IMG/VR virus record: IMGVR_UViG_3300045988_041287
Coordinates: 1-41,704 of that record
Reading direction: 5' to 3' (one strand)
Length of the DNA: 41,704 bases
DNA from: a virus
Position 1 is the first letter of the stretch. Each line of letters starts with the position of its first letter. Under the pieces are notes generated by a model. It searched no databases. It was not told where the DNA came from and worked only from the letters and a program-made list of their open reading frames with translations. This document shows positions 127 through 41,704 of this stretch, piece after piece. Made by a program: the position numbers and the translations under genes.

Positions 127-171
127 GTGACCATAAGATAAATCAAGCCGCAAGGCAAGGAGGATACAAAA

Positions 172-348: not shown

Positions 349-396
349 AGGTCTGAACACCGCCGCAGGAAGAATGCTAAATAAGGAGGAAACATC

Positions 397-1143: not shown

Positions 1144-1172
1144 GCCCGCCCCATAAGGGACGGGCATTTTTA
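1144..1172 (+). terminator. Rho-independent terminator at the convergence of the plus early operon and the minus operon
   Basis: Stem gcccgcccc/gggacgggc (8 of 9 pairs), loop ataa, followed by attttta. Confidence 0.55.
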
Positions 1173-1355
1173 TGCCCCTCGGAAGCTCTCCCGAACCTCC
1201 CCGCCGCGCGTCCGAAACGCCACAACGTGGAATCTCCCCGCCGGGTGCACATACGTCACCCGGCATCTTTGCGGCTTGTTTTTGATATTCGGCTTCTTGT
1301 CGTCGTCCTCGATCGTCTCCGGCGCTCTGCTCACGATGTCCCCGACCTTTAGCAT
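1170..1355 (-). CDS. Hypothetical protein, 61 aa
   Basis: ORF track; GGAGGAGG RBS 7 nt upstream of the ATG; last gene of the leftward operon. Confidence 0.6.
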   Translation of the reverse strand: MLKVGDIVSRAPETIEDDDKKPNIKNKPQRCRVTYVHPAGRFHVVAFRTRGGEVRESFRGA

Positions 1356-1582
1356 ACACGTTCCTCCTCCGTTTTCTCTAGTGCACCACTGTCTGGGATT
1401 TTCTCCCCACCGACCCGCTTGCCGCGCAGCCCGTTCGGCAGCTCCTCCAGCGGCAGCTCCCGCCTGCGCTTAAATTCTCCCGCATCAAAGCCGCAGCGCC
1501 TGCATTCCGCCCCGTTGGGCGATACATACGCGCACCCGCCCTTCAAGCAGTTCCCGCGTGCCCGCTCTTCAACGCCGCCCAT
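1349..1582 (-). CDS. Hypothetical Cys-containing protein, 77 aa
   Basis: ORF track; AGGAGGA RBS upstream of the ATG; overlaps both neighbours by a few nt. Confidence 0.55.
   Translation of the reverse strand: MGGVEERARGNCLKGGCAYVSPNGAECRRCGFDAGEFKRRRELPLEELPNGLRGKRVGGEKIPDSGALEKTEEERVC
1351..1386 (-). promoter_or_regulatory. Copy 1 of the GTGCACTAGAGA-N18-TAnnnT motif
   Basis: Minus strand: GTGCACTAGAGA (1386-1375), 18 nt, then TATGCT (1356-1351). The hexamer overlaps the ATG of the 61-aa ORF. Confidence 0.4.
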
Positions 1583-8317: not shown

Positions 8318-8496
8318 CCTTTTCACCTCGTTTGCCTTTCGTAGCTCAGAACTTTTTTGTTATTCATTTCATCCCTCGGCTATACGTTATCATAACTCAG
8401 CATCGTTGTCAAGCACATTTTTATTTCTAGGCTATACTTTTTGTTGACTTTCATCGCCTCGCGTGTTAATGTAGTGCCAGAAAGGTGGTGATCCCG
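8318..8496. promoter_or_regulatory. Divergent promoter/operator region of the lysis-lysogeny switch
   Basis: On the plus strand: TTGACT (8444-8449), 17 nt, TAATGT (8467-8472). On the minus strand: TTGACA (8412-8407). GGCTATAC occurs as a direct repeat at 8378-8385 and 8430-8437. Confidence 0.5.
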
Positions 8497-8880
8497 ATGG
8501 GCACGATCAGTGAGCGCATCGCATTTCTTATTAAAGACCAGCATGAAACGCGTACCTCGTTCGCGGAGAAAATCAACTTGAGCCAGCCGTTTGTTTCCGG
8601 CTTGTGCTCTGGCGCGAAGCAGCCCAGCGACCGCACGATCTCGGACATCTGCCGTGTGTTCGGTGTCTCGGTTGCTTGGCTTACAGATGGCGTCGGCGAG
8701 ATGTATGTCCGCCGCAGCGCCAATGAAGAGCTGGCGATCCTCGTCAACGATCTCATGTCCGATGCCGACGAATCCTTCCGCAAGCGGTTCGTTTCCCTCC
8801 TGCTTGCTCTCCCGCCGGAAAGCTGGGCAGCGATCGAGGATTTTGCGAAAAAATTGCAAAAAAACACCGTGGACGATTAA
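8497..8880 (+). CDS. XRE-family CI-like repressor (no S24 peptidase domain)
   Basis: MGTISERIAFLIKDQHETRTSFAEKINLSQPFVSGLCSGAKQPSDRTISDICRVFGVSVAWL is a classic HTH_3. It is transcribed divergently from the early operon. Confidence 0.8.
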   Translation: MGTISERIAFLIKDQHETRTSFAEKINLSQPFVSGLCSGAKQPSDRTISDICRVFGVSVAWLTDGVGEMYVRRSANEELAILVNDLMSDADESFRKRFVSLLLALPPESWAAIEDFAKKLQKNTVDD

Positions 8881-8904
8881 CTCGTCCACGGTGTTTCTCT
8901 TTTC
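8863..8904 (+). terminator. Rho-independent terminator after the repressor
   Basis: Perfect 14-bp stem aacaccgtggacga/tcgtccacggtgtt, loop ttaac, then tctcttttc. An A-run upstream suggests it may work in both directions. Confidence 0.8.
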
Positions 8905-12960: not shown

Positions 12961-12984
12961 ATCCCCTGTATTTTCAACGTGTTT

Positions 12985-13025
12985 ACGGCTGCTCAATCAG
13001 GGTTCGAATCCCTCATCCCCTGCCA
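12985..13025 (+). other. Putative attP core: the 3' end of a tRNA gene (T-arm, acceptor strand and CCA), not a complete tRNA
   Basis: cagGGTTCGAATCCctcatcccctgCCA ends at 13025. No complementary 5' acceptor strand or anticodon arm lies upstream. Confidence 0.6.
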
Positions 13026-13032
13026 TAGCACG

Positions 13033-13066
13033 AAAAACCAGCAATCCGTTGCGATTGCTGGTTTTT
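13033..13066. terminator. Bidirectional hairpin terminator next to the tRNA-like core
   Basis: 14-bp stem aaaaaccagcaatc/gattgctggttttt, loop cgttgc. Confidence 0.7.
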
Positions 13067-13139
13067 CCTTATATGTCAATGTTTTCCCAGCTTTTTAGCA
13101 TTATGTTTTCTCATAAAATACTCTGCATTCGCACCCGCA

Positions 13140-13183
13140 AAAATGCTAACGCAGAATACAAAATGCTAACGAAAATGCTAACG
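13140..13183 (+). repeat. Three further copies of AAAATGCTAACG (putative arm-type sites) on the other side of the core
   Basis: Exact 12-mers at 13140-13151, 13160-13171 and 13172-13183. A partial inverted copy (ttttagcatt) is at 13094-13103. Confidence 0.6.
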
Positions 13184-14683: not shown

Positions 14684-14720
14684 AAAAAAAGACCGTGCAT
14701 TTCTGCACGGTCTTTTCTCT
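14684..14720 (-). terminator. Rho-independent terminator after the lysis/sigma-like genes
   Basis: Stem gaccgtgca/tgcacggtc, loop tttc. On the minus strand it is followed by TTTTTTT; a T-run also follows on the plus strand. Confidence 0.8.
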
Positions 14721-14722
14721 GT

Positions 14723-14968
14723 TCAGTTCAGCAGTCTCGACGTTCTCTGCATCCTTCTCAAGATGTCCGGCAGCCGCCTTTGCACCGTCGCGCGCCCCAG
14801 ATACAGTTCCGTCGCCACATCCACCTGCGGCAGCTTGTCCACATAATAGAGCCTTGCGATCTGCGTATCCTCTCTGCCAAGATTCGCCTCGCGGATCACG
14901 GTCTCCATGCCCTGCCGGGTCATGCGCTCCAGCTCCGGCGGCATCGTAATTCTGGCGCGTGGCGACAT
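14723..14968 (-). CDS. Sigma-70 region-4-like HTH protein (putative transcription regulator)
   Basis: LGREDTQIARLYYVDKLPQVDVATELYLGRATVQRRLPDIL resembles sigma region 4.2. Confidence 0.55.
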   Translation of the reverse strand: MSPRARITMPPELERMTRQGMETVIREANLGREDTQIARLYYVDKLPQVDVATELYLGRATVQRRLPDILRRMQRTSRLLN

Positions 14969-19815: not shown

Positions 19816-20181
19816 TCACTGTACCAGGCACTTATTCCCCTTTGCCAGCGTCGTTTTCCTCGCGCCAGCCTCGTCCGTGTATTCATACTCCACGTCGTAG
19901 GTATAGTCCCCCTCCGGGAACAGTGCCGTGGTCGCCTTGTCAAACGCCAGCGTGATCGTGTCCCCGCTGATCGTCGGTGAAAACTCCTTCACAAGCACCA
20001 TCTTTGCATCATAAAATCGTACCGTCACCGCATCGCCGGTTTTCAAATGCACCTGCTCGCCGTCCTGATCCATCAGTCCGATCTCCAAGACAATGCGAAA
20101 TACATTTCCCTCATACCAGCACAGCGTCCCAAACTCAAATCGGGGCGACGGCTTTGCCGCCGGAATATCCATACTCATCAC
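19816..20181 (-). CDS. Hypothetical virion-module protein, 121 aa
   Basis: ORF track; GGGAGGAGG RBS. Confidence 0.6.
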   Translation of the reverse strand: MMSMDIPAAKPSPRFEFGTLCWYEGNVFRIVLEIGLMDQDGEQVHLKTGDAVTVRFYDAKMVLVKEFSPTISGDTITLAFDKATTALFPEGDYTYDVEYEYTDEAGARKTTLAKGNKCLVQ

Positions 20182-20190
20182 CTCCTCCCT

Positions 20191-20226
20191 ATTGTATCAG
20201 CCTCCGGCGGCAAATCTCTAGTGCAC
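20191..20226 (-). promoter_or_regulatory. Copy 2 of the GTGCACTAGAGA-N18-TAnnnT motif (candidate internal late promoter)
   Basis: Minus strand: GTGCACTAGAGA (20226-20215), 18 nt, then TACAAT (20196-20191). Located in the gap between the giant ORF stop and the next RBS. Confidence 0.5.
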
Positions 20227-26200: not shown

Positions 26201-28514
26201 TTAGCCGAGCCTTATACTCGCGCAGCGTGTCCCCGACCTTGCCGAGCAGCTTGTCGCCCTTCACGCGCCCGCGTACATCCTCCTGCCCCGCCTGCCGCAA
26301 GACCGTCCGCACCTCCGGCTCGTTGTTTGCACTCTCCAAAGCCTCCCCTTGGTGACCAAGGGGAGGTGGCGCGGAGCGCCGGAAGGGATCAGAACTACCC
26401 CCGTTCTGAGCTGCCGCCACGTCTGCCTCCAGCTCCATATTGTCCGGCAGCCCGTCCCCGTCCTCGTCGATCACGTCCATATTGGACGGAATGTCGTCCT
26501 CCACGTCCATATTCTCCGGCACGTCGCTCTCGCTTGCTTCCCGCTGTACCTCCTCCACGGTCCTCTCCGCCGCGTCGCTCTCTCCGGCTTTGTCCAGCGC
26601 GTCGATCAAGCGCCCGAAATCCTGCATATCCGGCGCGCGTCCGTATGCCAGCTTGTCGCTGATCGTATCGCGCGCCGCCTGGACGTCCGCGTTTGTGCTG
26701 CCGTCCGTCTCCCGGATCAGGATCTTCGCGTACTGCTTCATGTATCGGTCCTGCCGTGCCTGTGACAGCCCGCTCACCATCCCGGCAGCATCGCCCAGCA
26801 CGCCGACGAATACGCCGCCGAGGAATGACATCCCAAGGTCCTCCGCCGTCACTGACCCCTCCAGCGTCCCGTCCAGCACTAGGCTCTGGAACGTCGGCTC
26901 AAGCAGCTCCGCCACGACCTCCTCCAGACCCTCCGATACCAGCCCGAACGCCTTGCTGTCCAGCACCCGCAGGAGCGTCTTATTTTTCAGCTTCGCCGCC
27001 GCCCGGTTGATAAGACCCACGTCCTCGTCATACACCGGGTTTCCGCCGAACAGCTTTTCGGAGAATACTTCCACGGCGGCGTTCTCCAAGCCGATCAAAA
27101 TCGCCTCGCCGTCCGTCGCCCCTGCATTCTTCGCATCCACCGCCGCGTTGCCGCCCGCTCTGGACGCCATGGACGTCAGGGTGGATAGATTCGTCGTCTC
27201 CTTCATCGGATTCACGCCGCTCATCCCGGCAAGCCCCGCGTCCAAAAGCATCGACCCGACCGACGGCAGGTTCTCCACCACGAACTTCCCGACGTCGCTT
27301 CTGTCCTTCGTCGCCCGCTCCATAATGCGGCTGTACTCGTCCTGCCATGCCTGCGCGCCCGACCAGTCGATGTCTGTCGCCAGCTTGTCCGCCAGAGCGT
27401 TCAGGCTGTCCCGGTACGCCTGCCCGAAAATGCCGCCCAGCACCTTGCTCTTTGCAAGGTCACGCAGCGCCCACGCCGCCGCCTTGTTGATTCCTGCTTC
27501 CGCGACCGCGTGCGTCGCCTCCTGACCGCCCAGCCACGACGCCGAGCTGCCGCTGATGAACGCATCCGCCGCCGCCTCGCCAAAGCCCACATAGTCCCCC
27601 GTGAGCTTTGGATTTTTCAGCAGCGCCCGGAAGTCCGAAAGGTCCTTGCCGGTCACGCCCATCTCGTCGAACCTCTGCCGCAGCGCGTCCTTTTCCTCCC
27701 GGTCCTCGTCAGCGTCCAGTTCAAAATAGCGCGCCACGTCCTCCCGAATGCCCAGATTGTCCAGTCTGGCGTTCTGTGCCTGATAGCGCGTCTGCTCGTC
27801 TGTGGTGGTCGTTACGCCGTTCAGATAGTTTTGATACGTCCCGTATTTCTTCTGCATGGCAGTGGAGCGGTTGAACTCCTGCTCCGTTACCTTGCCTTCC
27901 CGCTGCGCCTGTTCCTGCTTCGCTCGGCGCGCATTTTCCATCGCCTCGTCGTACCCGGCGTACACGCCGCGCAAATAGTTCTGGTAGCTGCCGTATTTCT
28001 GCTGCATCGCCGTGGAGCGGTTAAATTCCTGTTCCGATACCTTGTCCGAGGAAAACCTGCCTCGCGGCGTTGTGTCCTGCTTCTGCCCCAGCTCTGCCCG
28101 GTACTGCTCCTCCGTCGTCCCGCGCATCGCCCTGTACCGCTGCTGCGTGATGCTGTCCACCGCCGCCTTGTACTGCTCAAACGTCACCCCGCCCTGCGCC
28201 TTGTAGCGCGAGAGCGTCGGGCTGTATGTCCCCCGTGCAGCGCTTGGCTCTCCCTCTGGGATAGCTGTCCGCCCGCCGGATGTGTACGTTTTGACCCACG
28301 GCGTGCTTGTGCCCCGCCCATCCTGTTCCTTGGCGGTTTTCATGATGGCGGTCCAGTCAAAGCGCCCCGCCTGCTCTGTCTGCTGCTGTCGCTGGGTATA
28401 CGGCTCTACCGCCCGGCTGCCGGAGCTGTTGCCGTAAAGCGCCTGATTGTCGCTTCTGCGCGCCCGCTCCATCACCTGCTTCCAGTTGATATTGCTTTCT
28501 GTTTTCTTCGCCAT
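20226..28514 (-). CDS. Giant (2,762 aa) polyvalent-type virion/ejection protein
   Basis: A single uninterrupted ORF. Contains HEAMH (HExxH, nt 25119-25133), a MuF-C/PBECR-like segment (KHNVPQRVFNNLESIMQQPVLSF...), internal duplications and long helical regions. No tail tube or sheath genes are nearby. Confidence 0.8.
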   Translation of the reverse strand: MAKKTESNINWKQVMERARRSDNQALYGNSSGSRAVEPYTQRQQQTEQAGRFDWTAIMKTAKEQDGRGTSTPWVKTYTSGGRTAIPEGEPSAARGTYSPTLSRYKAQGGVTFEQYKAAVDSITQQRYRAMRGTTEEQYRAELGQKQDTTPRGRFSSDKVSEQEFNRSTAMQQKYGSYQNYLRGVYAGYDEAMENARRAKQEQAQREGKVTEQEFNRSTAMQKKYGTYQNYLNGVTTTTDEQTRYQAQNARLDNLGIREDVARYFELDADEDREEKDALRQRFDEMGVTGKDLSDFRALLKNPKLTGDYVGFGEAAADAFISGSSASWLGGQEATHAVAEAGINKAAAWALRDLAKSKVLGGIFGQAYRDSLNALADKLATDIDWSGAQAWQDEYSRIMERATKDRSDVGKFVVENLPSVGSMLLDAGLAGMSGVNPMKETTNLSTLTSMASRAGGNAAVDAKNAGATDGEAILIGLENAAVEVFSEKLFGGNPVYDEDVGLINRAAAKLKNKTLLRVLDSKAFGLVSEGLEEVVAELLEPTFQSLVLDGTLEGSVTAEDLGMSFLGGVFVGVLGDAAGMVSGLSQARQDRYMKQYAKILIRETDGSTNADVQAARDTISDKLAYGRAPDMQDFGRLIDALDKAGESDAAERTVEEVQREASESDVPENMDVEDDIPSNMDVIDEDGDGLPDNMELEADVAAAQNGGSSDPFRRSAPPPLGHQGEALESANNEPEVRTVLRQAGQEDVRGRVKGDKLLGKVGDTLREYKARLKEYDARTAELRGLEANAVTAAADNAAPHQSAAPTASPKGEAINARVQELREQIAQDEAYLEAKERDMQDVANVARARLENERQQKEMGRETQTLSDKELRETEQSAQAQESAAELAARRAAEEQDAAELERIAKQREYGFAMTQYFISGYFDANDRVQMDIPTYAEAVRVAYGKGRFGWKFKREDSQRGIADEVLQEAYKEGRRKGEENGTAGIGNGGERDAGMDSDEPSGRVGRGAGGAEKESAGGFGVKESLRIQSVLGTAKAERLSPKADGIENGSDQKMFYRVPEETVQEYPALKQAKQILTDAGADDVRLVSGSIRIRTAGGREMSVQGVTQGTTVWLTIDAKDGVIKTAEHEAMHLRLEAEPGLRERLIDALGLSREQRDKLARKYCEAYEGCYTGEDMSAYLDEIVCDAYAGINRMGLGADKLQERVRTEADRAASQRTKKPAQTRGPPEAYSINNTRGESVKEQFKQYRANGLTKHDEFYFGTLAREYDALGITGQPLVMSQTTYKKSKSEKHNVPQRVFNNLESIMQQPVLSFEIGNSVGVLTDEIDGDGKPLLVGVLKDAELDGETVTRIKSIYGLDNPKEWIANQIKEGKELRIYDDKKADSFLNGFGYKAGRAENYRLGDIVQSVEENVKGKYSPETRDANAEANVAEEQNGGSSDPLRRSAPPPLGHQGEASETGEKPKVYSYDKLPGKARAFVDQAVNSAVRQAANAMSIPGKAKREVLKPAVQGMMNEFLKTGKIAQETINESFEDAYDAGIEEDREFYDTFKHIKVKLLKTGIRVTPEVRAEFADLEQFRRAVRGRILLNNEGIGIDTLYGELHDEAPGLFPEAIMNPADQLMRMIEVANKIQITKQTLDEAHKGDGGDYKRWAKNDFERSVENMTSVMRTVRRYVEAAERRKVMQYTPQSEEEALKLGEDLRKARKNYERVKNRNLLTDEDERVVWRLLRGEIAPEAVQDMDNARSILDVYQAKSDYDALRVPMERWRRSAREKNREYAREHLTNIESTKDKKGFFLQRETMTRNTRDVFAREDAERINNDYFAQVRRDEAKATRFKNEMRGRVKAMNMSREKRTGDLVSEAHAVQLYGEAMNNIEMLKKKPMDAKRDGKTLAEWEAVVRELWKTSPSLDKTKIESAVAEFRKIYDETLEAMNRKRIENGYEPVPRRSGYFPHFQPGQTDGILAMVANALGVNGDVTELPTTIAGRTYMFRPGIKYFGNAEERLGFNTAYDAVEGFDRYIEGAASVIYQTDNIQRLRALASEIRYMASSEGVQQQVDAIRADTELSQYERDKKVEEILEKAKFQLSGYVNELEEYTNLLAGKKSRTDRDMERDHGRKIYNVMQKTIGRVGANMVALNLRSAATNFAPLVQTAMQHGGLQTFAAMWQTVRNVRDRDGIVERSAFLTNRRGSDPLVNGRMGKISDAAGAVMNVVDNFTAEAVVRVRYNDNLRRGLNEVDAMDEADQYAADVMAARSKGEMPTRYESKNPFTKMLTQFQLEVNNLPRNVFKDTAYYMSKDHPDWSNSRFVAEYAWRLLKYCIYAWLFNEAFESIFGGRVLPDPINMANDFVGDTTGKRLGNIFDAATEEFIHGRDGEWIETTNKKRLSAALTGLGEAILDDVPGTQVLALVTDDLDGGRLPVTQAIPNVLTIINAATDKDMANDVRWEKIGAEVAKPVTYLFAPLGGGAVKKTAQGIYAVVQGGSFKKNKDGELLMQYPVFNETTGDKILNTIKVSIAGKTATSEAKKWVDNDFSNLNMKETNAYLAMSAADVKQREAWKLIQAMKDVDVPEGASEREAKLAALNAYDIADEAKAMYYYNVIASEKEQAMLQRLLNENADVGAYLEYRQALPGADGWKDAEGNTVSGSKKSELYDLLDSYDFTPEQKDAIAGESYKLTGFEPWTEQGKSLREAAMTGKNVTQVVRELKKAGYTNGEISQAITALCRQDFREASERERIDLRAHLATVYAMLGKDRKKALEKIDEWAQ
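21400..21571. repeat. Source region in the giant gene for the 76-bp methyltransferase insert
   Basis: 21400-21459 and 21556-21571 match 5256-5331. This region encodes ...KYCIYAWLFNEAF...GNIFDAATEEFIHGRDGE. Confidence 0.85.
24149..24248. repeat. GC-rich hairpin element (B-type) in frame in the giant gene
   Basis: cctccccttggtgaccaaggggagg and ggcgcggagcg(a)cc hairpins, ending in ccgcgtttgc. Translated as ANAEANVAEEQNGGSSDPLRRSAPPPLGHQGEASE. Confidence 0.85.
26079..26159. repeat. GC-rich hairpin element (A-type variant) in frame in the giant gene
   Basis: gcttcccctttgggggaagc and gtcggcgcagccgac hairpins (compensatory changes relative to 6455/7809), then tgatgagggg ... cgcgtttgc. Translated as ANAVTAAADNAAPHQSAAPTASPKGEA. 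Confidence 0.8.
26339..26430. repeat. GC-rich hairpin element (B-type) in frame in the giant gene
   Basis: About 89% identical to 24149-24240. Translated as EADVAAAQNGGSSDPFRRSAPPPLGHQGEALE. Confidence 0.85.
27811..28045. repeat. Internal ~85-bp duplication in the giant gene, two copies about 150 bp apart
   Basis: Encodes KV(S/T)EQEFNRSTAMQ(Q/K)KYG(S/T)YQNYL twice. Confidence 0.8.
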
Positions 28515-29639: not shown

Positions 29640-29811
29640 CCGCTTCTTCCTCCTTTTCCGCTTCCTCCCGCAGCTCCCGCTCCATTGCCTGCAATACCTG
29701 CCCGCGCACCTCGCGCAGCGCCGCGTCCGCCATCACTGGCGGCAGCTCCGCCCGGTTGATCGCCTCCACGATCTGATTTTTCAGTTCAAAATACCGTCTC
29801 GTCGTATTCAT
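29620..29811 (-). CDS. Small helical protein, 63 aa
   Basis: ORF track; ATGA overlap with the upstream tail-spike gene. Confidence 0.5.
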   Translation of the reverse strand: MNTTRRYFELKNQIVEAINRAELPPVMADAALREVRGQVLQAMERELREEAEKEEEADGHLQG

Positions 29812-31286
29812 GTTGTCCCCTCCAATGCCGCAATTCTGGTTTTCAGTTTTTGTATCTGGTCGATGCAGAGCGCGATAAATTCGCCGTACCGCAAAAAATA
29901 GCTGTAGCCGCCCTCGTCCTTCGCCGCCTTGCAGATGCCCGCGAACTCCTGCCCCGTCAGCCCCACGGCGGTCATCGCTTCCTCCACGTCCTGCGCGATC
30001 ATGCCGACGTGTACGCGCCCGCTCGTTCCGGCGTTCAACTTGTAGTGCGCCGGCTTCAATCGGTCAAACAGCGCCGCATACCGCTCCATGTCGTAGCTGA
30101 TGCTGTTTTTCTCATTCAGGTCGGATGTCTGGATCACGTCGTCTACCGCCCACACGCTGTTCCATAGACGCTTTCCCGTTCCCAATCTCACATCTCCGCT
30201 TGAGCTTGGTCCAAAGTAGAGCACGCTCACTTTCGTTGAATCATCCTCGATCGAAACGTCTCTCGTTTCCCGCAATTCCACGCCGCAATCTGTTGTGTAT
30301 ATCCGCGCGCTCGTTGGGGTGATTCGCATTCCTCCGCTCTCTGCATCCGCGCTTCCCTGTGCGAGAAACAGCACTCGACCGTCCGAAACGCTGACCATGG
30401 ATTCGTTTGGCGAGCGCAAACTGATCTGCTTATTCGTTTCACCTTCATACGTTTCCACATACACGCCCAAATACCCCACCAGCGTCTCCGCACTGGACGC
30501 CTCATAGACCGGCAGATTGCCGCGCAGCTTGAACTTCTCCAGATACAGCCCGCTGATCTCCGCGTTCTCCGAAATGGTCAGCTTCGTCGCTGTGATCTCG
30601 CCGCTGATCTTCGCGCCCAGCGCCTCCAGCGTCCCGGCTGGGAAGTGCAGCTTCTTTCCCGACAGATACGCCACCTTTAAGCCCTGCTGCCAGAAGGCGA
30701 TTTCCCCCGGCGTCACAGTCACGACCTCGCCCTGCTTCTCGTCGATGACCTCGCCGTTCAGCTCCGTCTTTGTGGATATGTTCCCCACGCCTACGCCGTA
30801 CACCGGCTGCGCGTTCTCGTCGTGGAATAAAAGCCCCGTCTTGACGTACTGCCGCGCCGTCACGCCGTACCGCTCATCCTTGCTGTTGATGCCCGCCGTG
30901 TAGTCAAAAAGCTGTGTAATGCCCTTGCTGTTGATCTCGATGGTCGCGCTCGTCGCCTCCGCGTACTCGCCGAACGTGGACTTTGCCACATACCCGCCCT
31001 GTAACGTCTTGGTGAACTGCTCGGAGTTCTCCATCGAAAAGTCCGCCGTCTTGATAATGAGCTGCTTGAGCGAGGCAAACGCGCTCTGTTTCTTTTCCTT
31101 CTCGGTCCTCAGTGCCGCGTCCTCGTTGATGCCTGTGGAAATTTCCTGCAAGATCGCCTCCGCCGACCAGTCCGCGAGATTCAGTTGGTCAATGATGTCC
31201 CGCATCGACCGCTGTAATGCCGCGAGCTGCTCCTGCACCGACCCCTCTGTCCGCTTCGGATACGCTAAATTCAGGCTTCCCATCAC
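29808..31286 (-). CDS. Tail fibre/spike with a C-terminal S74 intramolecular-chaperone domain
   Basis: The C-terminus ...TSDLNEKNSISY...RVHVGMIAQDVEEAM...LRYGEFIALCIDQIQKLKTRIAALE matches the endosialidase-chaperone (Peptidase_S74) pattern. Confidence 0.75.
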   Translation of the reverse strand: MMGSLNLAYPKRTEGSVQEQLAALQRSMRDIIDQLNLADWSAEAILQEISTGINEDAALRTEKEKKQSAFASLKQLIIKTADFSMENSEQFTKTLQGGYVAKSTFGEYAEATSATIEINSKGITQLFDYTAGINSKDERYGVTARQYVKTGLLFHDENAQPVYGVGVGNISTKTELNGEVIDEKQGEVVTVTPGEIAFWQQGLKVAYLSGKKLHFPAGTLEALGAKISGEITATKLTISENAEISGLYLEKFKLRGNLPVYEASSAETLVGYLGVYVETYEGETNKQISLRSPNESMVSVSDGRVLFLAQGSADAESGGMRITPTSARIYTTDCGVELRETRDVSIEDDSTKVSVLYFGPSSSGDVRLGTGKRLWNSVWAVDDVIQTSDLNEKNSISYDMERYAALFDRLKPAHYKLNAGTSGRVHVGMIAQDVEEAMTAVGLTGQEFAGICKAAKDEGGYSYFLRYGEFIALCIDQIQKLKTRIAALEGTT

Positions 31287-33073
31287 GCATCACTCCCCGC
31301 CTCCAGCACGCGCGACAGCGAAAGCAGCCGGAAGTCCCCCGTGCCGGATATTTTGAATTGCAGGTGGTCGCACCGCCGTGGGCGGATCGGGAGCAGGAAC
31401 GACCGAATGCCCCGCCCCTCCATGTGCCCGCAGTGCCGCCACTGCTTGTCAGAATCATATTGCACCCAAAAATCGCACCGCGACTCCCTCGGAAGCTGCA
31501 TCCGCAGATTCAGCCGCGAGATGTATTTCTTGCCCACTAAGCCGTAGGTCATGATGCCGGTCTCCGCCCACCACGAAACAGGCGCTTCCGGCGTGCCCTC
31601 CTGCCCCATCAGGTCTAGAACCGTCACGCTCCCGCTCTGATCCTTCGCCGCGTAGAGCGTGTCCCTGCCGCTCGTGAGCGCTGTGAGCGCTTCTGCGCCG
31701 CTTTCCGCGTGCCATAGCCCCCGCATCGTGTCGTACACAAAAAGCCGCTGTGCGCCGTCCGGCGCGCTCATGGCGATGTAATACTTGCCCCGTGCGGTCG
31801 CCGCCATCGCGTTTTTGTAGAGGATGCCGCCCAACGCGTCCGAAATTCTGCTCGGAGCGCCCCCGTCGTAGCGGTACACGCCCAGCCGGGACTTGTAGTA
31901 CAAAACGTTGTCGACCACGCACAGGCTCTTGCCCGACCCGTCCTGCACGCCCTCGCACGTGAGCTGCACCACCTGATGTGCGCCCTTGCTGGACGGATAC
32001 ACCCTGTGGATAAAATCTTCCTTAAAAAACATCGGGCTGTCGTTATACGTCGCCGCGCCCGTCCACTTCCCGTCCGTGCCGACGCTCGCCCGGTACGAAT
32101 CGGTCGAAATGCCCATGTAGCACTCCCAGTTCTTGAAGTCTCCCAGCTTGCAGCAGTAAATTTCGTTCAGCATATCGCCGTCCTGCCCCACGCCGTAATA
32201 GCAGCCCCAAAGCCGGTTTCCGCACTCCGTCACATAGTCCAGCTCCGGCAGGCGGCGGTTCGTGATAATTTCCCCGCTCGTCTGCTCTGCTGTGGTATCC
32301 AGAATGCCGGTGATGATGATATAGTCGTCCGCCGCGCCGTATAAAACGTGCGACCCGTTCAGCACCTTCGCCTGCTCCGTCCCCTCGATGCCGCTCAAAA
32401 TGATCCCGTCGTACTGTTTCATCCCCACGCCGATGCCGCCGAGCGATAATTTCACATACGTCGTCGCCACCTGCACCCACTGTGCCGAGCTTGCCGACCA
32501 CTGCTTGAGCGCGTGCGGCTCAGAGCCTGTGTCCACCCAATACATCCCGTTCGTGCGGTCTGTCGGCTCTGTGTCCGTCGCCGAGGCTGTAATGCCCGCC
32601 CCATCCGGCGTGCAGAGCGTGATCGTCAGCTTCGCCGCGCTCGTCGGCGTCACGGTGTTCTTGCGCGCCATGTACCCGGCGTCCGTTGGTTTCAGCGTGT
32701 TGTAGTAAATGCCGTCCGGGAATATGCAGAGGTAAGCGCCCATGCTCACGAGCTGCTTTTCCCCCGCCGTGAGCGTCACGCCCTGCGGCAGCTCCTGCAA
32801 AATGCCCCCGCAGTAAAGCCCCGGCAGCGTTGCTCCCTGCCACACATACCACAGAACGCCGTCCCGCGCCGTCCAGCCCAGGAGCGACCCTTCGCCCAGC
32901 GCTTTCATCGTGCTCCGCCGCATACGCGGCGCAAGCATCGGGAAGTAGTCTCCCGTTAAATTCTCAAGGTCGTAGAACGCCCCGTCCTGTATCTGGAGGT
33001 TGTGGTCGTAGCCGTAAAAGACCTCCGTCACCGCCTGCTCCTTGGCAGGCGTATTTTTCTGCACAAATAGCAT
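31283..33073 (-). CDS. Large virion structural protein, 596 aa (putative tail or nozzle protein)
   Basis: ORF track. Called by position, between the connector-like gene and the tail spike. Confidence 0.5.
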   Translation of the reverse strand: MLFVQKNTPAKEQAVTEVFYGYDHNLQIQDGAFYDLENLTGDYFPMLAPRMRRSTMKALGEGSLLGWTARDGVLWYVWQGATLPGLYCGGILQELPQGVTLTAGEKQLVSMGAYLCIFPDGIYYNTLKPTDAGYMARKNTVTPTSAAKLTITLCTPDGAGITASATDTEPTDRTNGMYWVDTGSEPHALKQWSASSAQWVQVATTYVKLSLGGIGVGMKQYDGIILSGIEGTEQAKVLNGSHVLYGAADDYIIITGILDTTAEQTSGEIITNRRLPELDYVTECGNRLWGCYYGVGQDGDMLNEIYCCKLGDFKNWECYMGISTDSYRASVGTDGKWTGAATYNDSPMFFKEDFIHRVYPSSKGAHQVVQLTCEGVQDGSGKSLCVVDNVLYYKSRLGVYRYDGGAPSRISDALGGILYKNAMAATARGKYYIAMSAPDGAQRLFVYDTMRGLWHAESGAEALTALTSGRDTLYAAKDQSGSVTVLDLMGQEGTPEAPVSWWAETGIMTYGLVGKKYISRLNLRMQLPRESRCDFWVQYDSDKQWRHCGHMEGRGIRSFLLPIRPRRCDHLQFKISGTGDFRLLSLSRVLEAGSDA

Positions 33074-36027: not shown

Positions 36028-36174
36028 GCTATCACCGCACCCACGGCTTCCCCCTTGAGGGGGAAGCTGTCCGCGCAGCGCCCGCACCATCTCTTGCCTT
36101 CCCCTTGGGGGGAAGGTGGCGCGAAGCGCCGGATGAGGGGAAGGGTTGCTGTCTCTGCCCTGCCCCGCGTTTGC
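36028..36174. repeat. Composite intergenic hairpin element (an A-type unit nested in a B-type unit) abutting the prp stop codon
   Basis: 36028-36041 plus 36089-36174 parallel 38432-38527. The extra 47 bp at 36042-36088 carries ggcttcccccttgagggggaagc and ends in a second copy of CCGCACC; the two CCGCACC copies are at 36035-36041 and 36082-36088. Confidence 0.8.
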
Positions 36175-38431: not shown

Positions 38432-38527
38432 CTATCGCCGCACCCCTTGCCTTCCCCTCGGGGGGAAGGTGGCGCGAAGCGCCGGATGAGGGGAAGCGTC
38501 GTTGTTTCTGATCTGTTCCGCGTTTGC
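38432..38527. repeat. Intergenic hairpin element (B-type) abutting the terL stop codon
   Basis: ccttcccctcggggggaagg and ggcgcgaagcgcc hairpins, then ggatgagggg ... ccgcgtttgc, ending at the TAG of terL. Confidence 0.85.
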
Positions 38528-39879
38528 TATCCCCCAAACTGATCCAGCGGGTCATTCAGCAGCACCCGCCGCGCCACCGGGCGCATCGCCTTGATCGGTC
38601 GGCTCATGCAAAAATACCGTACCTCGTCGCACGCATGATCCTCCATCGTCGTATCCAGATCCTCGACGTGCGTCTTGGAGTACATCATCATCGGCATCGT
38701 GCGGATAATGGCGTCGCAGCCTTTGAAAAAATACATCCGCGCGTAGCCGCCCTCGTCAAATTGCAGCCGGTAATGCACTTGCATCCAGCCAGGTATCCGG
38801 GCGTTGTCGCCCTTGGAAAAGTACACCCCGTACCGCGCCGCCGTCTGCGCGATGCTCTCGCCGTGCGATGCGTCCCAGATCGCGGGGTCAGCCACGCCCT
38901 GTATCTCCTTGCCCCGCAGCCACGGGTGTTCCCGCTCTGTTCTGCGTATCTCTTCAAACTGCCGGTCCGGCGACCACTTTACGCCCTCGTTCGGCTCGCC
39001 TGTCCAGCCGTAAAGCTCCAGAACGCGGTACAGCACGCCGTCGTAATCCACCGCCCACCAGGCGCAGGAAAACGGCTTTCCGTAGCCGAAATCGTAGCTC
39101 CTGTAGATTCTCCATCCCGCGTCCGGCACAAACGGCGCGATGACGTGCGTAAATCTCCTGTCCTCGTAGTGCGCCGGGTCGTCGCGGAACTCCTCGAAGA
39201 ACTGCCCCTCGAATACGTCCCAGCGCCCTTCCAGCCACGCCGCCCGCTGCGCCGGCGGCAGGCTCTTTAGGTTGCTCACATACTCCGGCTGCGCCTGCAT
39301 GAGCGCCTTGTTGTCCGTCACGAGTGCCTGGATAAAGCTGTAATCCTCCGGCTTCTCCTCGCCCTCGAAGCGGCGGTCGATGAAAAGGCGCTTGAAATAC
39401 CCGTGGCTCGGACCGCCGGGGTTGAGCGTGTAGTACGTCCGCTTCGGGAAATTGTTCACGCCGCGCACCGTGGCGTTGATAAGCCTGATCCACTGCTCCT
39501 GGAGCTGCCCCGCCTCGTCGAAGAAGATCACGTCGTATTCCTGCCCCTGATACTGCGCCACATCGCCGTCATTGCGGCAGTACCCAAGCATTATTCGCGA
39601 CCCATTGCCAAATGTGAACACTTTGCTCGTCTGGTTGTATTGCGCCACGCCGTGCAAAAGCTGCATCAGCGGCAGCACATGGTTGTTATACAGCTCCGGG
39701 TACGTCTTGCGCACAATGAGCACCTTGATCCCCGCCCATGCACCGCAGAGTAAAAACGCCTTGATGCGCACCGCCCAGCTCTTCCCACCGCCGCGCGCGC
39801 CGCCGTATGCCACATGGCGGTGCGTGTCCGTCAAAAATTGCCGCTGCTTGTCGCTGGGATTGATCTTGATCGTCCTCAT
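38527..39879 (-). CDS. terL: Terminase large subunit
   Basis: Walker A YGGARGGGKSWA; 450 aa; followed by the portal gene. Confidence 0.9.
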   Translation of the reverse strand: MRTIKINPSDKQRQFLTDTHRHVAYGGARGGGKSWAVRIKAFLLCGAWAGIKVLIVRKTYPELYNNHVLPLMQLLHGVAQYNQTSKVFTFGNGSRIMLGYCRNDGDVAQYQGQEYDVIFFDEAGQLQEQWIRLINATVRGVNNFPKRTYYTLNPGGPSHGYFKRLFIDRRFEGEEKPEDYSFIQALVTDNKALMQAQPEYVSNLKSLPPAQRAAWLEGRWDVFEGQFFEEFRDDPAHYEDRRFTHVIAPFVPDAGWRIYRSYDFGYGKPFSCAWWAVDYDGVLYRVLELYGWTGEPNEGVKWSPDRQFEEIRRTEREHPWLRGKEIQGVADPAIWDASHGESIAQTAARYGVYFSKGDNARIPGWMQVHYRLQFDEGGYARMYFFKGCDAIIRTMPMMMYSKTHVEDLDTTMEDHACDEVRYFCMSRPIKAMRPVARRVLLNDPLDQFGG

Positions 39880-40367
39880 CTCGCCATATCCTGCATCGCG
39901 TTCTCAAATTCCACCCGCGCACCGTTCTCCTTCGGTGCTGCATCGTTCCACCCGAATTTGCAGCCCAGCGCGTATTTTGCGCCGCTGGCTCTGCTCGTGG
40001 CGAGCTGCCGGATGTGGAACGCCTCGATCCGCTGCTCTGCTCTCATGCAGATCAGCTCATAGCCCGCCTGCTGCCGCAGCTCCAGCCAGTCTGCATCGCT
40101 CATGCCCAGCGCCAGCAGCAGCCCCGGCAGGCTCGGCGGCTCGATCCACTGCGTCGCCATCGCCTGTCGCTTGCCGTGCATCACCGCCTCTAGCCTGTAC
40201 AGGGGATGTCCGTAGCCGTCCAGCGCCTGCACGGTGATCGTCTCGCCGCCGATCACCTGCTCCTGCGTCACCGGCACGCGCCGGTATACCGGCTCGTCGT
40301 AGCTGATCCCGGCAAAATACCGCCGCACCGCAGAGCCAAGCCTTGCAGGGCTGTCCAGCCGCTTCAT
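39876..40367 (-). CDS. terS: Terminase small subunit
   Basis: 163 aa with an ATGA overlap with terL. The PPSLPGLLLALGMSDADW segment is typical of the TerS HTH. Confidence 0.65.
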   Translation of the reverse strand: MKRLDSPARLGSAVRRYFAGISYDEPVYRRVPVTQEQVIGGETITVQALDGYGHPLYRLEAVMHGKRQAMATQWIEPPSLPGLLLALGMSDADWLELRQQAGYELICMRAEQRIEAFHIRQLATSRASGAKYALGCKFGWNDAAPKENGARVEFENAMQDMAR

Positions 40368-40396
40368 CCGCGCACCCCCTTTTTCTTCCTGCTAAG

Positions 40397-40444
40397 AGTA
40401 TAGCAGAGCCGACGCGAAAATCTCTAGTGCACCTTCGCGTCGGC
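40397..40444 (-). promoter_or_regulatory. Copy 3 of the GTGCACTAGAGA-N18-TAnnnT motif, upstream of terS, with the motif in the loop of an 11-bp hairpin
   Basis: Minus strand: GTGCACTAGAGA (40432-40421), 18 nt, then TATACT (40402-40397). The inverted repeat gccgacgcgaa (40408-40418) / ttcgcgtcggc (40434-40444) flanks the motif. Confidence 0.55.
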
Positions 40445-40553: not shown

Positions 40554-40769
40554 TCACTCCGCGTCGTACAGCATCGTCAGCATACGGTTTATCTCGCACT
40601 TTTCCCAATTCCGGCAGCAGTACTCCCGTACCTGCCGCTTCTTTTCCGCCATGCGCTCATAACGCAGGACGATCTTTGATCGGTTTTCCAGCCCCTCGCA
40701 CTGGATCTCCCACTTGTTGTCCGCCTTGTAAAACGGGCAGCCCACGTCCGGGTTTTGCCATCCCTGCAT
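40554..40769 (-). CDS. Cys-rich small protein upstream of terS, 71 aa (possible late regulator)
   Basis: Trimmed to MQGWQNPDVGCPFYKADNKWEIQCEG...YCCRNWEKCEI. GGGAGG RBS. Confidence 0.55.
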   Translation of the reverse strand: MQGWQNPDVGCPFYKADNKWEIQCEGLENRSKIVLRYERMAEKKRQVREYCCRNWEKCEINRMLTMLYDAE

Positions 40770-41547
40770 CCTGCTCAACCTCCCACAGCTTGACGTAGCG
40801 TATGTACTGCGGCTCGATGCGGCTGTTCTCCGCCCGCTCCAACAGCGAGCACCCCGCCGGCACGCGCAGCTCGGCGTCGGAATGCACCGTGCGCTCATAG
40901 TCCGGCACTGGATGGATGAGATTGCGGCTCGGCTTGTAGCGCTTTTCGTCCTTCCCCGCCCGCACCTGGCGCAGGAGATATGCCACTAGGTCGTTGTGAT
41001 CCGGCTCATTCCAAAGCCGCTTGGCGCGCACCTCTCCGCAGCGCCACTTGTCCGCGCACGCCTGCGCGCTGTCCGGGTCTACGATCACATGGTGGTGCAG
41101 GCGCGCAGGCTCGCCCGTCTTGCCGTTGCGGTCTGACGTGATCGCGAAATATCGCGCGCACGCGCCCCCCTTCGCGCGCGCGCGACGAACTCTGCGTGTC
41201 CACAGCTCCAGCTCCCGCTCCGCCTGATCTCTGAGCGTGTCCTCCGTCAGCTCCTGCCCAAGTGCGCGCACCCGGTCTGCGAGCTTGCCGATCGCCTCGT
41301 CCGTGTAGGTCAGCTCCAGCAGCACGCCGTCTGTGCGGTAAAAGCTCGCGTTTACCATTCGGCATACCGCCCGCATTCCCTGTCCGGCTTTCCGCTCCTG
41401 CCGCGCGATCTCCCGTCTCGTTTTTTCCCGGTTTTGTGCAATGGCATCCGGCACGCGGAATTTGATCTTCTCCACCGTCTGTCCGACGGTGTAGCATCTC
41501 ACCTTCCACGTCCCTTCCTGCCGCACCGGCAGCCACCGTCTTTCCAT
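40657..41547 (-). CDS. HUH-superfamily rolling-circle replication initiator (Rep)
   Basis: Motif I LLELTYT, motif II RLHHHVIV, and downstream Tyr candidates (VAYLLRQ, RYKPS). The C-terminal ~37 aa overlap the next gene and may not be genuine. Confidence 0.6.
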   Translation of the reverse strand: MERRWLPVRQEGTWKVRCYTVGQTVEKIKFRVPDAIAQNREKTRREIARQERKAGQGMRAVCRMVNASFYRTDGVLLELTYTDEAIGKLADRVRALGQELTEDTLRDQAERELELWTRRVRRARAKGGACARYFAITSDRNGKTGEPARLHHHVIVDPDSAQACADKWRCGEVRAKRLWNEPDHNDLVAYLLRQVRAGKDEKRYKPSRNLIHPVPDYERTVHSDAELRVPAGCSLLERAENSRIEPQYIRYVKLWEVEQDAGMAKPGRGLPVLQGGQQVGDPVRGAGKPIKDRPAL

Positions 41548-41629: not shown

Positions 41630-41704
41630 ATGTATGTCCGCCAATCCCGGCGTCTCGATCCAGCGCGGCAAAACCGCGCTCGACCCAACCGCCCGAAAAA
41701 AAAT
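41630..41704. repeat. Terminal direct repeat (right copy), identical to 1-75
   Basis: Exact 75-nt identity with the start of the window. Confidence 0.95.

What the first reader, a model, noticed from the sequence alone, without database searches (positions are those of the whole stretch)
40397..40444. A 12-nt motif, GTGCACTAGAGA, occurs three times, always 18 nt upstream of a TAnnnT hexamer: candidate phage-specific (late) promoter or regulator site
On the transcribed (minus) strand the exact 12-mer occurs at 40432-40421, 20226-20215 and 1386-1375, and nowhere else that I could see. Each copy is followed after exactly 18 nt by a -10-like hexamer: TATACT, TACAAT and TATGCT respectively. Copy 3 sits just upstream of terS, the usual position of a late operon promoter in Firmicute phages. 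There the motif lies in the 15-nt loop of an 11-bp inverted repeat (gccgacgcgaa/ttcgcgtcggc). Copy 2 lies in the short gap between the giant gene and the fibre genes. Copy 1 is near the end of the early operon, where its hexamer overlaps an ATG, so a transcript from it would be non-coding or antisense. The last six bases, TAGAGA, resemble a -35 hexamer (4 of 6 matches to TTGACA), while the GTGCAC extension is palindromic. Candidate readers are the sigma-region-4-like protein (14723-14968) and the Cys-rich protein encoded just upstream of terS (40554-40769).
Basis: partly seen in the sequence, partly recalled or inferred. Interest (0 to 1): 0.66.

Follow-up and report, generated by a model that had tools for sequence, protein, structure and literature searches.

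The report
Phage-specific box in late promoters
A 12-base sequence found three times in this gut phage is most likely the phage-specific upstream half of three promoters, two of them heading the particle-building and cell-lysis genes; related phages use the same layout with their own box, but the protein that reads the box is unknown.

Summary
GTGCACTAGAGA occurs exactly three times, always on the minus (coding) strand. Each copy lies 18 nt upstream of a TAnnnT hexamer, and there are no degenerate extra copies.

The window is a circular phage genome: bases 1-75 equal 41630-41704. Copy 1 therefore lies 2.6 kb upstream of copy 3, ahead of a small gene, a rolling-circle-type Rep gene and the Cys-rich gene.

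All close relatives keep the sites, even where the DNA just 5' of the box is unrelated. Four more distant lineages of the same uncultured phage group lack the 12-mer. Each carries its own box at the same distance from a TAnnnT hexamer, twice per genome, before terS and before the scaffold/capsid genes.

I conclude that this is the -35-region specificity element of a lineage-wide class of sigma-A-type late promoters. It is a new variant of a known kind, comparable to the RinA, Ogr and MotA systems.

- The sigma-region-4-like protein is a poor candidate. It is the last gene of the late operon, and its helix-turn-helix is identical in about 78 other phage contigs, none of which holds the exact 12-mer/-10 pattern.
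- The 71-aa four-cysteine protein upstream of terS is the best candidate, by association only.

No transcription data exist.

The parts
40421..40432 (-). Box copy 3 (GTGCACTAGAGA), upstream of terS
   Evidence: Identical in L001, L002, L091 and L296.
40397..40402 (-). -10 hexamer TATACT of copy 3, preceded by TGc at 40405-40403. The start site is predicted near 40390.
   Evidence: The promoter scan scores it 9 of 12 with TG present. The hexamer and the leader are homologous to those of the terS sites in group B.
40408..40444 (-). 11-bp inverted repeat (gccgacgcgaa / ttcgcgtcggc) enclosing box copy 3. It forms a 15-bp hairpin as RNA. Its role is unresolved: it may end the upstream operon or serve as an operator.
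   Evidence: One relative has a C-to-T change in the 3' arm that keeps a G-U pair on this strand.
20215..20226 (-). Box copy 2, abutting the stop codon of the giant gene
   Evidence: It is kept in L081 and L082 although the 5' flank there is unrelated.
20191..20196 (-). -10 hexamer TACAAT of copy 2, preceded by TGa. The start site is predicted near 20184, inside the ribosome-binding site of the first fibre-module gene.
1375..1386 (-). Box copy 1, inside the last codons of a 77-aa zinc-ribbon ORF
   Evidence: It is kept in L296, where the 5' flank is non-coding and unrelated.
1351..1356 (-). -10-like hexamer TATGCT of copy 1. It overlaps the ATG of the 61-aa gene and has no TGn.
39876..40367 (-). 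terS, the first gene of the packaging/head/tail unit
   Evidence: Weak GP3_package match (E = 3e-5, below Pfam's cut-off), and it lies next to terL.
40554..40769 (-). 71-aa four-cysteine protein ('CPFY' family). It is the best, still unproven, candidate reader of the box.
40657..41547 (-). HUH-type replication initiator (LHHHVIV and VAYLL motifs). It overlaps the Cys-rich gene by 113 nt.
   Evidence: phrog_3584; sequence; weak REP_ORF2-G2P match.
1170..1355 (-). 61-aa gene (phrog_27610), immediately downstream of copy 1
14723..14968 (-). Sigma-region-4-like 81-aa protein, the last gene of the late operon
14684..14712 (-). Intrinsic terminator that ends the late transcription unit
   Evidence: The same layout is seen in other phages.
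19816..20181 (-). First gene downstream of copy 2 (LtfC-like). It is followed by the collagen-like fibre, BspA-repeat, small unassigned ORFs (possibly holins) and amidase genes.

Best explanation
**What it is.** The 12-mer is the upstream (-35-region) half of a class of promoters specific to this phage. Each site has three parts:
- a box spanning about -47 to -36;
- an 18-nt spacer whose sequence is not conserved;
- a sigma-A-type -10 hexamer TAnnnT, extended by TGn at two of the three sites.

**What it drives.**
1. Copy 3 heads terS, terL, portal, capsid, tail and the giant protein.
2. Copy 2 heads the fibre and lysis genes, ending at the terminator at 14684-14712.
3. Copy 1 points into the 61-aa gene, Rep and the Cys-rich gene.

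**How it most likely works (inferred).** Host RNA polymerase with its housekeeping sigma reads the -10. The last six bases of the box, TAGAGA, are a poor -35. The whole box is recognised by a phage-encoded specificity factor that recruits or re-targets the polymerase, in the manner of a class-II activator or of sigma appropriation.

**Who reads it.** The most likely factor is the 71-aa four-cysteine protein encoded just upstream of terS. I put that at about 0.3 on its own.

**Shown versus inferred.** The sequence anatomy, its conservation, and the equivalent boxes in relatives are shown.
For: **Anatomy.**
- Three perfect copies lie on the coding strand, each 18 nt from TAnnnT. The chance probability is about 1e-7.
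- There are no degenerate copies and none near the canonical early promoters.

**The clade.**
- A scan of the whole viral collection finds the 12-mer plus hexamer three times in each of two complete relatives and twice in a 5-kb fragment. All other hits are single.
- A Firmicutes MAG holds the copy 1 and copy 3 sites.
- At copy 2 (L081, L082) and at copy 1 (L296), similarity to the window stops exactly at the 5' edge of the box. The box therefore belongs to the downstream module and is not conserved as coding sequence.
- Substitutions within the clade fall in the spacer and the leader. None falls in the box or the hexamer.

**Other lineages** (terL 67-71% identical for groups B, C and E).
- Groups B and C have GCGTGGGGTGAAA-N17-TAnnnT, with 138 sites before terS and 36 before the scaffold gene. 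The box is invariant while the spacers differ.
- Group E has GTGGGATAGARAT-N17-TAnnnT before terS and before the scaffold gene, two per genome.
- L302 has GGGTTTAGARAT-N17-TAnnnT at the same two places.
- All 11 site types align without gaps from box to -10. Three box positions and the T, A and T of the hexamer are invariant.
- In L053 both sites carry the same altered 5' part of the box.
- Gene order differs between lineages, yet the boxes still sit at the heads of late modules.

**Contrast with the early promoters.** These are canonical TTGACA-N17 promoters, so the box promoters form a separate class.

**The Cys-rich protein.**
- It is present just upstream of terS in all five box-bearing lineages.
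- It is the only early-region family that BLASTP links across lineages A, E and L302. The B and C versions are recognised by the cysteine pattern and a pairwise match of E = 2e-4.
- It is absent from the three related loci examined (L065, L076, L080), which have no such box and where L065 shows a canonical sigma-A promoter in that region.
Against: - There are no transcription start data of any kind.
- The hexamer of copy 1 overlaps the start codon of the next gene. A transcript from it would skip that gene, so copy 1 may act differently or not at all.
- Copy 1 has no counterpart in the other lineages.
- Copy 1 precedes replication genes, so the set is not purely 'late'.
- The Cys-rich protein has no recognisable DNA-binding domain. 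It has no Pfam, PHROG, NCBIfam or PDB relative and is nearly neutral in charge.
- Its gene is tightly linked to the terS promoter, so co-variation of protein and box could be simple linkage.
- Three lineages with the Cys-rich protein (group D, L301, L003) show no recognisable box.
- With a TGn-extended -10, some of these promoters might work without any activator.
Confidence: 0.65

Rival explanations
1. The box is an operator. A phage repressor binds it and blocks three otherwise constitutive extended -10 promoters, giving negative rather than positive control.
For: - The box overlaps the -35 position.
- Two of the three sites have TGn, which can make a -35 dispensable.
- GTGCAC is a palindrome.
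- Copy 3 is flanked by a perfect 11-bp inverted repeat that could be a dimer binding site.
Against: - No copy or near-copy lies at the early or immunity promoters, where a prophage repressor must act.
- The boxes of other lineages are not palindromic.
- The inverted repeat is present only at copy 3.
- The -35-like hexamers are poor (4 of 6), as expected for activator-dependent promoters.
Confidence: 0.1
2. The hairpin with the 12-mer in its loop is the origin (nick site) of the HUH rolling-circle Rep protein, whose gene ends about 210 nt upstream. The other two copies would be secondary sites.
For: - The Rep protein has HUH and tyrosine motifs.
- Copy 3 sits in the loop of a very stable GC-rich stem, as in many HUH origins. 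The comparison with known origins is from my own knowledge.
Against: - Only one of the three copies is in a hairpin.
- Three direct nick sites would cut the genome into sub-circles.
- In groups B and C, which also have HUH Reps, the boxes lie outside hairpin loops and in front of late genes.
- L080 has a Rep 71% identical to that of group B but no B-type box.
- Group E has a box like ours next to a DNA methyltransferase gene instead of a Rep gene.
- The fixed 18-nt distance to TAnnnT is left unexplained.
Confidence: 0.05
3. The reader of the box is the 81-aa sigma-region-4-like protein (14723-14968). It would act as a free-standing -35-binding module, as in RinA-type activators.
For: - It has weak Sigma70_r4, TIGR02937 and phrog_36 matches.
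- Sigma region 4 domains bind -35-like DNA.
- It is one of only three recognisable helix-turn-helix proteins in the genome.
Against: - It is the last gene of the late operon, directly followed by the late terminator. It cannot switch that operon on first.
- In about 78 other phage contigs it likewise follows the endolysin gene; in the four contigs examined it is followed by a terminator in three.
- Its helix-turn-helix (ATELYLGRATVQRRLP) is identical in those contigs. None of them holds the exact 12-mer/-10 pattern, and none has a TAGARA-type site within 6 kb of the gene.
- No overlap was seen between the listed contigs that carry it and those with B, C or E boxes. Both lists are truncated.
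Confidence: 0.08
4. The motif works in RNA, as a processing site, a terminator or stabiliser loop, or a translational element, and not in DNA.
For: - Copy 3 forms a strong RNA hairpin.
- One natural variant keeps the stem through a G-U pair on the transcribed strand.
- All copies are on the coding strand.
Against: - Only copy 3 is structured.
- The distance to the start codon varies (19, 42 and 53 nt) while the distance to TAnnnT is fixed.
- There is no U-run after the stem.
- No Rfam family matches.
- In relatives the box lies after the hairpin or terminator, not inside it.
Confidence: 0.04
5. The 12-mer is a short 'linker' kept at module junctions because it allows homologous exchange between phages. 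The -10-like hexamers would be incidental.
For: Homology breakpoints coincide with the 5' edge of the box in two cases.
Against: - It does not explain the strict spacing to TAnnnT in five lineages.
- It does not explain the single orientation.
- It does not explain the within-genome identity of boxes that differ between lineages.
- Junctions at promoters are expected in any case if modules are transcription units.
Confidence: 0.05

Closest known systems
Late operon promoters upstream of terS in phages of Gram-positive bacteria, switched on by RinA, ArpU, LtrC or DUF1492-type activators (PMC3152322, PMC3753634; abstracts seen)
   Same: - A dedicated promoter lies directly upstream of terS and controls the packaging, morphogenesis and lysis genes.
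- A small phage regulator gene sits just before it.
- The host polymerase is used.
   Different: - The protein in the 'regulator slot' here matches none of those families.
- There are two or three box promoters per genome instead of one.
- The box replaces the -35 instead of lying further upstream.
- Nothing has been tested experimentally.
Phage P2 late promoters activated by the 72-aa zinc-finger protein Ogr (own knowledge)
   Same: - Several late promoters in one genome share a short conserved upstream element.
- The candidate activator is a protein of about 70 aa with four cysteines.
   Different: - The P2 element is a TGT-N12-ACA dyad near -55. The box here is asymmetric and lies at about -41.
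- There is no Ogr_Delta match, the cysteine spacing differs, and the predicted fold has no PDB match.
- The host phylum differs.
Phage T4 middle promoters: a MotA box plus a sigma-70 -10 TAnnnT, with AsiA remodelling sigma region 4 (own knowledge)
   Same: - A phage-specific box takes the place of a normal -35.
- The host -10 (TAnnnT) is kept.
- A small protein without a DNA-binding domain could act on sigma.
   Different: - The MotA box is centred at -30, about 12 nt from the -10. This box ends 18 nt from the -10.
- No MotA or AsiA relatives were detected.
Bacillus phage SPO1 promoters read by phage sigma factors gp28 and gp33/34 (own knowledge)
   Same: The promoter classes are phage-specific, with unusual -35 elements at 17-19 nt spacing.
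   Different: - Those promoters also have non-canonical -10 elements, and the phage encodes full sigma factors.
- Here the -10 is of the housekeeping type, and no protein with sigma region 2 was found.

Membership tests
Sigma-70/sigma-A-type promoter | -10 hexamer with T1, A2 and T6 | tested here: met
   TATACT, TACAAT and TATGCT. The same holds at every site in four other lineages.
Sigma-70/sigma-A-type promoter | -35 hexamer close to TTGACA, 16-18 nt upstream | tested here: inconclusive
   TAGAGA matches 4 of 6 at 18 nt. The genome's early promoters have TTGACA or TTGACT at 17 nt.
Sigma-70/sigma-A-type promoter | Transcription starts 5-9 nt downstream of the -10 | not testable with these tools
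   No RNA data are available.
RinA/ArpU/LtrC/DUF1492 late-activator systems | An activator gene of one of these families immediately upstream of terS | tested here: not met
   The gene upstream of terS encodes the four-cysteine protein, which has no Pfam, PHROG or NCBIfam match. The only sigma-r4-like gene lies after the endolysin gene.
RinA/ArpU/LtrC/DUF1492 late-activator systems | A dedicated promoter upstream of terS that controls the late operon | tested here: inconclusive
   A promoter-like site is present and conserved. Its activity and its dependence on an activator have not been tested.
P2 Ogr/Delta late promoters | TGT-N12-ACA dyad centred near -55 | tested here: not met
   No such dyad lies upstream of the three sites, and their 5' flanks are unrelated to each other.
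P2 Ogr/Delta late promoters | Ogr_Delta zinc-finger activator | tested here: not met
   None of the 66 family members matches it in Pfam.
T4 MotA-dependent middle promoters | Box centred at -30, about 11-13 nt from the -10 | tested here: not met
   The box ends 18 nt from the -10.
HUH-Rep double-strand origin | Nick sequence in the loop of an inverted repeat near the rep gene, one per replicon | tested here: not met
   Only copy 3 is in a hairpin, and there are three copies in direct orientation. In relatives the boxes lie outside hairpin loops.
Intrinsic terminator (for the copy 3 hairpin) | GC-rich stem followed at once by a U-run | tested here: not met
   The stem is followed by CUGCUAUACUCUU, and the terminator scan did not list it.

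The most novel reading that the evidence does not exclude
The 71-aa four-cysteine 'CPFY' protein would be the founding member of a new family of phage transcription-specificity factors. It has 389 clusters at 50% identity, no known domain and no structural relative. In a large uncultured lineage of gut Firmicutes phages (P22-type portal, Prp protease, giant MuF protein) it would re-target host sigma-A polymerase to box-N17/18-TAnnnT promoters. Protein and box would have diversified together, giving promoter specificity groups within the lineage.
Probability: 0.3. Interest if true: 0.7.

Novelty: new variant of a known kind. Interest (0 to 1): 0.45.

Why it matters
**If correct, this gives three things.**
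- It provides the first regulatory map for a large group of gut phages with no cultured member. About 600 relatives of its terL are in IMG/VR, and none is a named phage. It shows where their late transcription units start and which short sequences define them.
- The between-lineage box variants (GTGCACTAGAGA, GTGGGATAGARAT, GGGTTTAGARAT, GCGTGGGGTGAAA) are a ready-made specificity-swap experiment.
- It points to one small uncharacterised zinc-type protein as the switch to test.

**Practical uses.**
- The box/-10 pattern can be used to annotate late operons.
- It can be used to sort these phages into regulatory groups.

**Limits.** The concept of activator-dependent late promoters is well established, so this extends a known theme and does not overturn anything.

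Tried and rejected
**Searches that found nothing.**
- A viral-contig scan with the nearest non-clade relative of the Cys-rich protein (P0003) gave no hit.
- tblastn of the Cys-rich protein and of P0031 against GenBank phages gave no usable match.
- Comparisons of the Cys-rich family with the PDB by sequence and by fold gave nothing. BFVD returned only uncharacterised gut-phage proteins.
- Rfam on the whole window gave no match.

**Ideas considered and rejected.**
- A phage RNA polymerase or full sigma factor. The 12-mer loosely resembles T7/SP6-type promoter cores, but no polymerase or sigma region 2 was found in any ORF tested. The giant protein shows only a MuF domain.
- A pac/cos site or a restriction-modification site. 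Three direct copies at gene boundaries, each tied to a -10, do not fit.
It is shared by groups A, B, C and E, but it also occurs in box-less L080 and is missing from L302.
Its cassette is absent from L002, which keeps all three boxes.
- The inverted-repeat half-site as a repeated operator. It has no other copy in the window.

Full report
**1. The observation**

GTGCACTAGAGA occurs exactly three times in the window, at 1375-1386, 20215-20226 and 40421-40432. All three copies are on the minus strand. None was found in 100 dinucleotide shuffles.

Relaxing to 2 or 3 mismatches adds only chance-level hits: 4 found against 2.2 expected, and 20 against 28. None of the extra hits is in an intergenic or promoter region.

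Each copy is followed after exactly 18 nt by a TAnnnT hexamer: TATGCT, TACAAT or TATACT. TAnnnT occupies 0.45% of minus-strand positions. Three of three at one spacing therefore has a probability of about 9e-8, or 5e-7 allowing six spacings. Copies 2 and 3 also carry TGn immediately before the hexamer, which makes an extended -10.

The 11-bp inverted repeat around copy 3 is real and unique in the window. As RNA it folds into a 15-bp stem with a 9-nt loop, dG -35.8 kcal/mol and z = -5.5.

One caveat applies. This genome has about a dozen other families of 12-mers that occur three or more times. A first-order Markov model expects about one. What sets this motif apart is not recurrence alone. It is the combination of position, strand and fixed distance to a -10.

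**2. Genome context**

Genes run almost entirely on the minus strand. In order they are:
- terS (39876-40367), terL and a P22-type portal;
- a Prp protease, a likely scaffold protein (no family match) and the capsid protein;
- tail proteins and a 2,762-aa protein with a MuF domain;
- a collagen-like fibre and a BspA-repeat protein;
- small unassigned ORFs (possibly holins) and an amidase;
- an 81-aa sigma-region-4-like protein.

The integrase and an Mrr-like gene are on the plus strand.

Bases 1-75 are identical to 41630-41704. The window is therefore a circular assembly of 41,629 bp. L001 bridges the junction. Reading along the minus strand, copy 1 lies 2,583 nt upstream of copy 3. Between them lie four features:
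- a 61-aa gene (phrog_27610);
- an inserted plus-strand cassette (see section 9);
- an HUH-type Rep gene at 40657-41547, with LHHHVIV and VAYLL motifs;
- a 71-aa four-cysteine protein at 40554-40769.

The late unit ends at an intrinsic terminator at 14684-14712, directly after the sigma-r4-like gene. The early promoters near 8430 are canonical: TTGACA-N17-TAACGT on the minus strand and TTGACT-N17-TAATGT on the plus strand.

**3. Conservation in close relatives**

A scan of all IMG/VR contigs for the 12-mer + N18 + TAnnnT found three kinds of result:
- three sites in each of two contigs of about 42 kb;
- two sites in a 5-kb fragment;
- otherwise only single hits in unrelated contigs.

A scan of 185,579 genomes with the 15-mer version found one related element, in a Firmicutes MAG.

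Two cases are informative about the boundary of the motif.
- At copy 2 in L081 and L082, the sequence upstream of the box is unrelated to the window. The match begins at the box.
- At copy 1 in L296, the upstream zinc-ribbon ORF is replaced by non-coding hairpin repeats. The box and everything downstream are kept.

The box therefore marks the 5' end of the conserved downstream module. It is not conserved because of the ORF that happens to overlap copy 1 in this genome. The few substitutions within the clade fall in the spacer or the leader. None falls in the box or the hexamer.

**4. More distant relatives**

The terL gene has at least 599 relatives in IMG/VR and no cultured or named relative. 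Lineages at 67-71% terL identity lack the 12-mer but have their own box in the same register.

| Lineage | Box and spacing | Where |
|---|---|---|
| Groups B and C | GCGTGGGGTGAAA-N17-TAnnnT | 138 sites before terS, 36 before the scaffold gene; two per genome in the contigs checked |
| Group E | GTGGGATAGARAT-N17-TAnnnT | before terS and between Prp and scaffold; two per genome, about 4.1 kb apart |
| L302 (fifth lineage, reached through a Cys-rich protein homologue) | GGGTTTAGARAT-N17-TAnnnT | the same two places |

In groups B and C the 13-mer is invariant while the spacers differ completely between site classes.

MAFFT aligns all 11 site types from five lineages without a gap from box to -10. 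Two G positions and one A position in the box region are invariant, as are the T, A and T of the hexamer. Lineages A, E and L302 share TAGARAT. Groups B and C have GGTGAAA at that place.

In L053 both sites carry the same altered 5' part of the box, GGGGGTGAAA instead of TGGGGTGAAA. This is a concerted change at two distant sites in one genome.

Gene order differs between lineages. In B and C the tail genes lie between terL and the portal gene. The boxes nevertheless stay at the heads of late modules. At terS, the -10 and the leader (TATRCT...AGCAGRAAG) are homologous between A and B, while the box differs.

**5. Interpretation**

The simplest account is a lineage-wide class of promoters. The host sigma-A -10 is kept. 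The -35 region is replaced by a box of about 12-13 nt that is identical within a genome and differs between lineages. This is the signature of recognition by a phage-encoded factor.

By position these promoters drive packaging, head, tail, fibre and lysis genes, that is, late genes. Clade A adds a third site ahead of Rep and the Cys-rich gene.

The predicted start sites for copies 2 and 1 would give very short leaders. Copy 1 would skip the ATG of the 61-aa gene. This remains unexplained.

**6. Who reads the box**

*The sigma-r4-like protein is disfavoured.*
- It is the last late gene, directly before the terminator.
- In about 78 other phage contigs it also follows the endolysin gene, with an identical helix-turn-helix; in three of the four contigs examined a terminator follows it.
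- None of those contigs holds the exact 12-mer/-10 pattern, and none has a TAGARA-type site within 6 kb.

*The four-cysteine protein is the best candidate.*
- It lies just upstream of terS in lineages A, B, C, D, E, L003 and L301. In L302 it lies about 3.4 kb upstream of terS, with several small genes between.
- BLASTP links it across A, E and L302. No other early-region family is shared that widely.
- It is absent from L065, L076 and L080, which have no such box and carry a different zinc-ribbon gene at that place (L065 and L080 were examined). L065 shows a canonical sigma-A promoter there.
- Its subfamilies track the box types.

*What is known of the family.*
- It has 389 clusters at 50% identity, with four invariant cysteines.
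- The AlphaFold model is confident (pLDDT 92): three strands followed by two helices.
- It has no Pfam, PDB-sequence or PDB-fold relative.

*Against it.*
- Its gene is tightly linked to the terS promoter, so the association could be linkage.
- It is nearly neutral in charge.
- Group D, L301 and L003 have the protein but no recognisable box.

**7. Rivals**

- *Repressor operator.* No copy lies at the immunity promoters, and the boxes of other lineages are not palindromic.
- *HUH-Rep origin.* The hairpin at copy 3 is suggestive. However, only one copy is in a hairpin. Relatives with Rep genes have boxes outside hairpin loops. L080 has a B-type Rep but no B-type box. Group E has an A-like box next to a methyltransferase gene.
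- *RNA element.* The distance to the start codon is not fixed, while the distance to the -10 is. Rfam gives nothing.
- *Recombination linker.* This is compatible with promoters sitting at module borders, but it does not explain the register with the -10.

**8. Comparison with known systems**

The system works like the activator-dependent late promoters upstream of terS in phages of Gram-positive bacteria (RinA and related families; PMC3152322, PMC3753634). From my own knowledge, it also resembles two other systems:
- P2 with its Ogr protein, where several late promoters depend on a zinc protein of about 70 aa;
- T4 middle promoters, where a phage box replaces the -35 and the host TAnnnT is kept.

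It is not a member of any of these. Their defining proteins and box geometries were tested here and are not met (see the membership table). I classify it as a new variant of a known kind.

**9. Other observations**

These are listed separately in the passing notes. They include:
- the attP-like region;
- the reverse-oriented cassette with a perfect promoter;
- the REP-like hairpin repeats;
- the duplicated segments;
- the rearranged gene order in groups B and C.

Noticed in passing
window 1-75 and 41630-41704: The two ends are an identical 75-nt direct repeat. The window is therefore a circularly closed assembly of 41,629 bp, not a linear fragment or an integrated prophage.
   Followed up: yes
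window 12928-13183: There are five copies of AAAATGCTAACG in two clusters. They flank a segment that looks like the 3' end of a tRNA gene (GGTTCGAATCCC...CCTGCCA) and a hairpin, just after the integrase gene. This is probably attP with arm-type sites and integration into a tRNA gene. ARAGORN finds no complete tRNA.
   Followed up: partly
window 98-1127 (+ strand): A perfect TTGACA-N17-TATAAT promoter at 98-126 heads three plus-strand ORFs (172-348, 397-795, 792-1127). The last has a winged helix-turn-helix. The cassette is inserted, in reverse orientation, between the 61-aa gene and Rep. The GC3 values favour these ORFs over the overlapping minus-strand ORFs. The cassette is absent from relative L002.
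   Followed up: partly
window 6463-6490, 7818-7845, 36044-36071; also L296 1000-1090: A hairpin repeat GCTTCCCCCTYRAGGGGGAAGC(TGTC) occurs three or four times. One site is the 280-nt gap between the Prp and scaffold genes. In a related MAG it lies directly upstream of copy 1. It looks like a small REP-like mobile or structural repeat.
   Followed up: no
window 36107-36143 and 38460-38496: A 37-nt segment is repeated in the Prp-scaffold gap and in the terL-portal gap.
   Followed up: no
window 5256-5331 and 21400-21571: About 60 nt of the early region is duplicated inside the giant gene. A further 40-nt palindrome-containing repeat lies at 24149-24188 and 26339-26378 within the giant gene.
   Followed up: no
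window 40657-40769: The Rep ORF overlaps the Cys-rich ORF by 113 nt in a different frame. The same overlap is seen in L001, L002 and L296.
   Followed up: no
window 5451-5654 (- strand): A second small cysteine-rich family with a basic tail (C..C..RS..C...C) is shared by lineages A, B, C and E, and also by box-less L080. It has no family match.
   Followed up: partly
window 8858-8900 and about 8400-8470: A strong bidirectional terminator lies next to a pair of divergent canonical promoters. This is probably the lysis-lysogeny switch region.
   Followed up: no
L049 and L056 (groups B and C) compared with the window: In groups B and C the block of tail genes (homologues of 31283-33073, 29808-31286 and neighbours) lies between terL and the portal gene. 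This is a large rearrangement of the structural module between otherwise related phages.
   Followed up: partly
L003 9290-9420: This relative has the Cys-rich protein. Upstream of terS it has four or five direct repeats of CCTCGCAATGACA and an AT-rich stretch instead of a box of the type described. This may be a different regulatory or packaging arrangement.
   Followed up: no
L004 9100-9170 and L301 9630-9800: These are compact relatives. Here the Cys-rich gene and the terminase genes follow a divergently oriented helix-turn-helix repressor gene, with no early region between; in L004 a canonical, operator-bearing sigma-A promoter was identified in the intervening region. They may be reduced phages or satellites of this lineage.
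   Followed up: no
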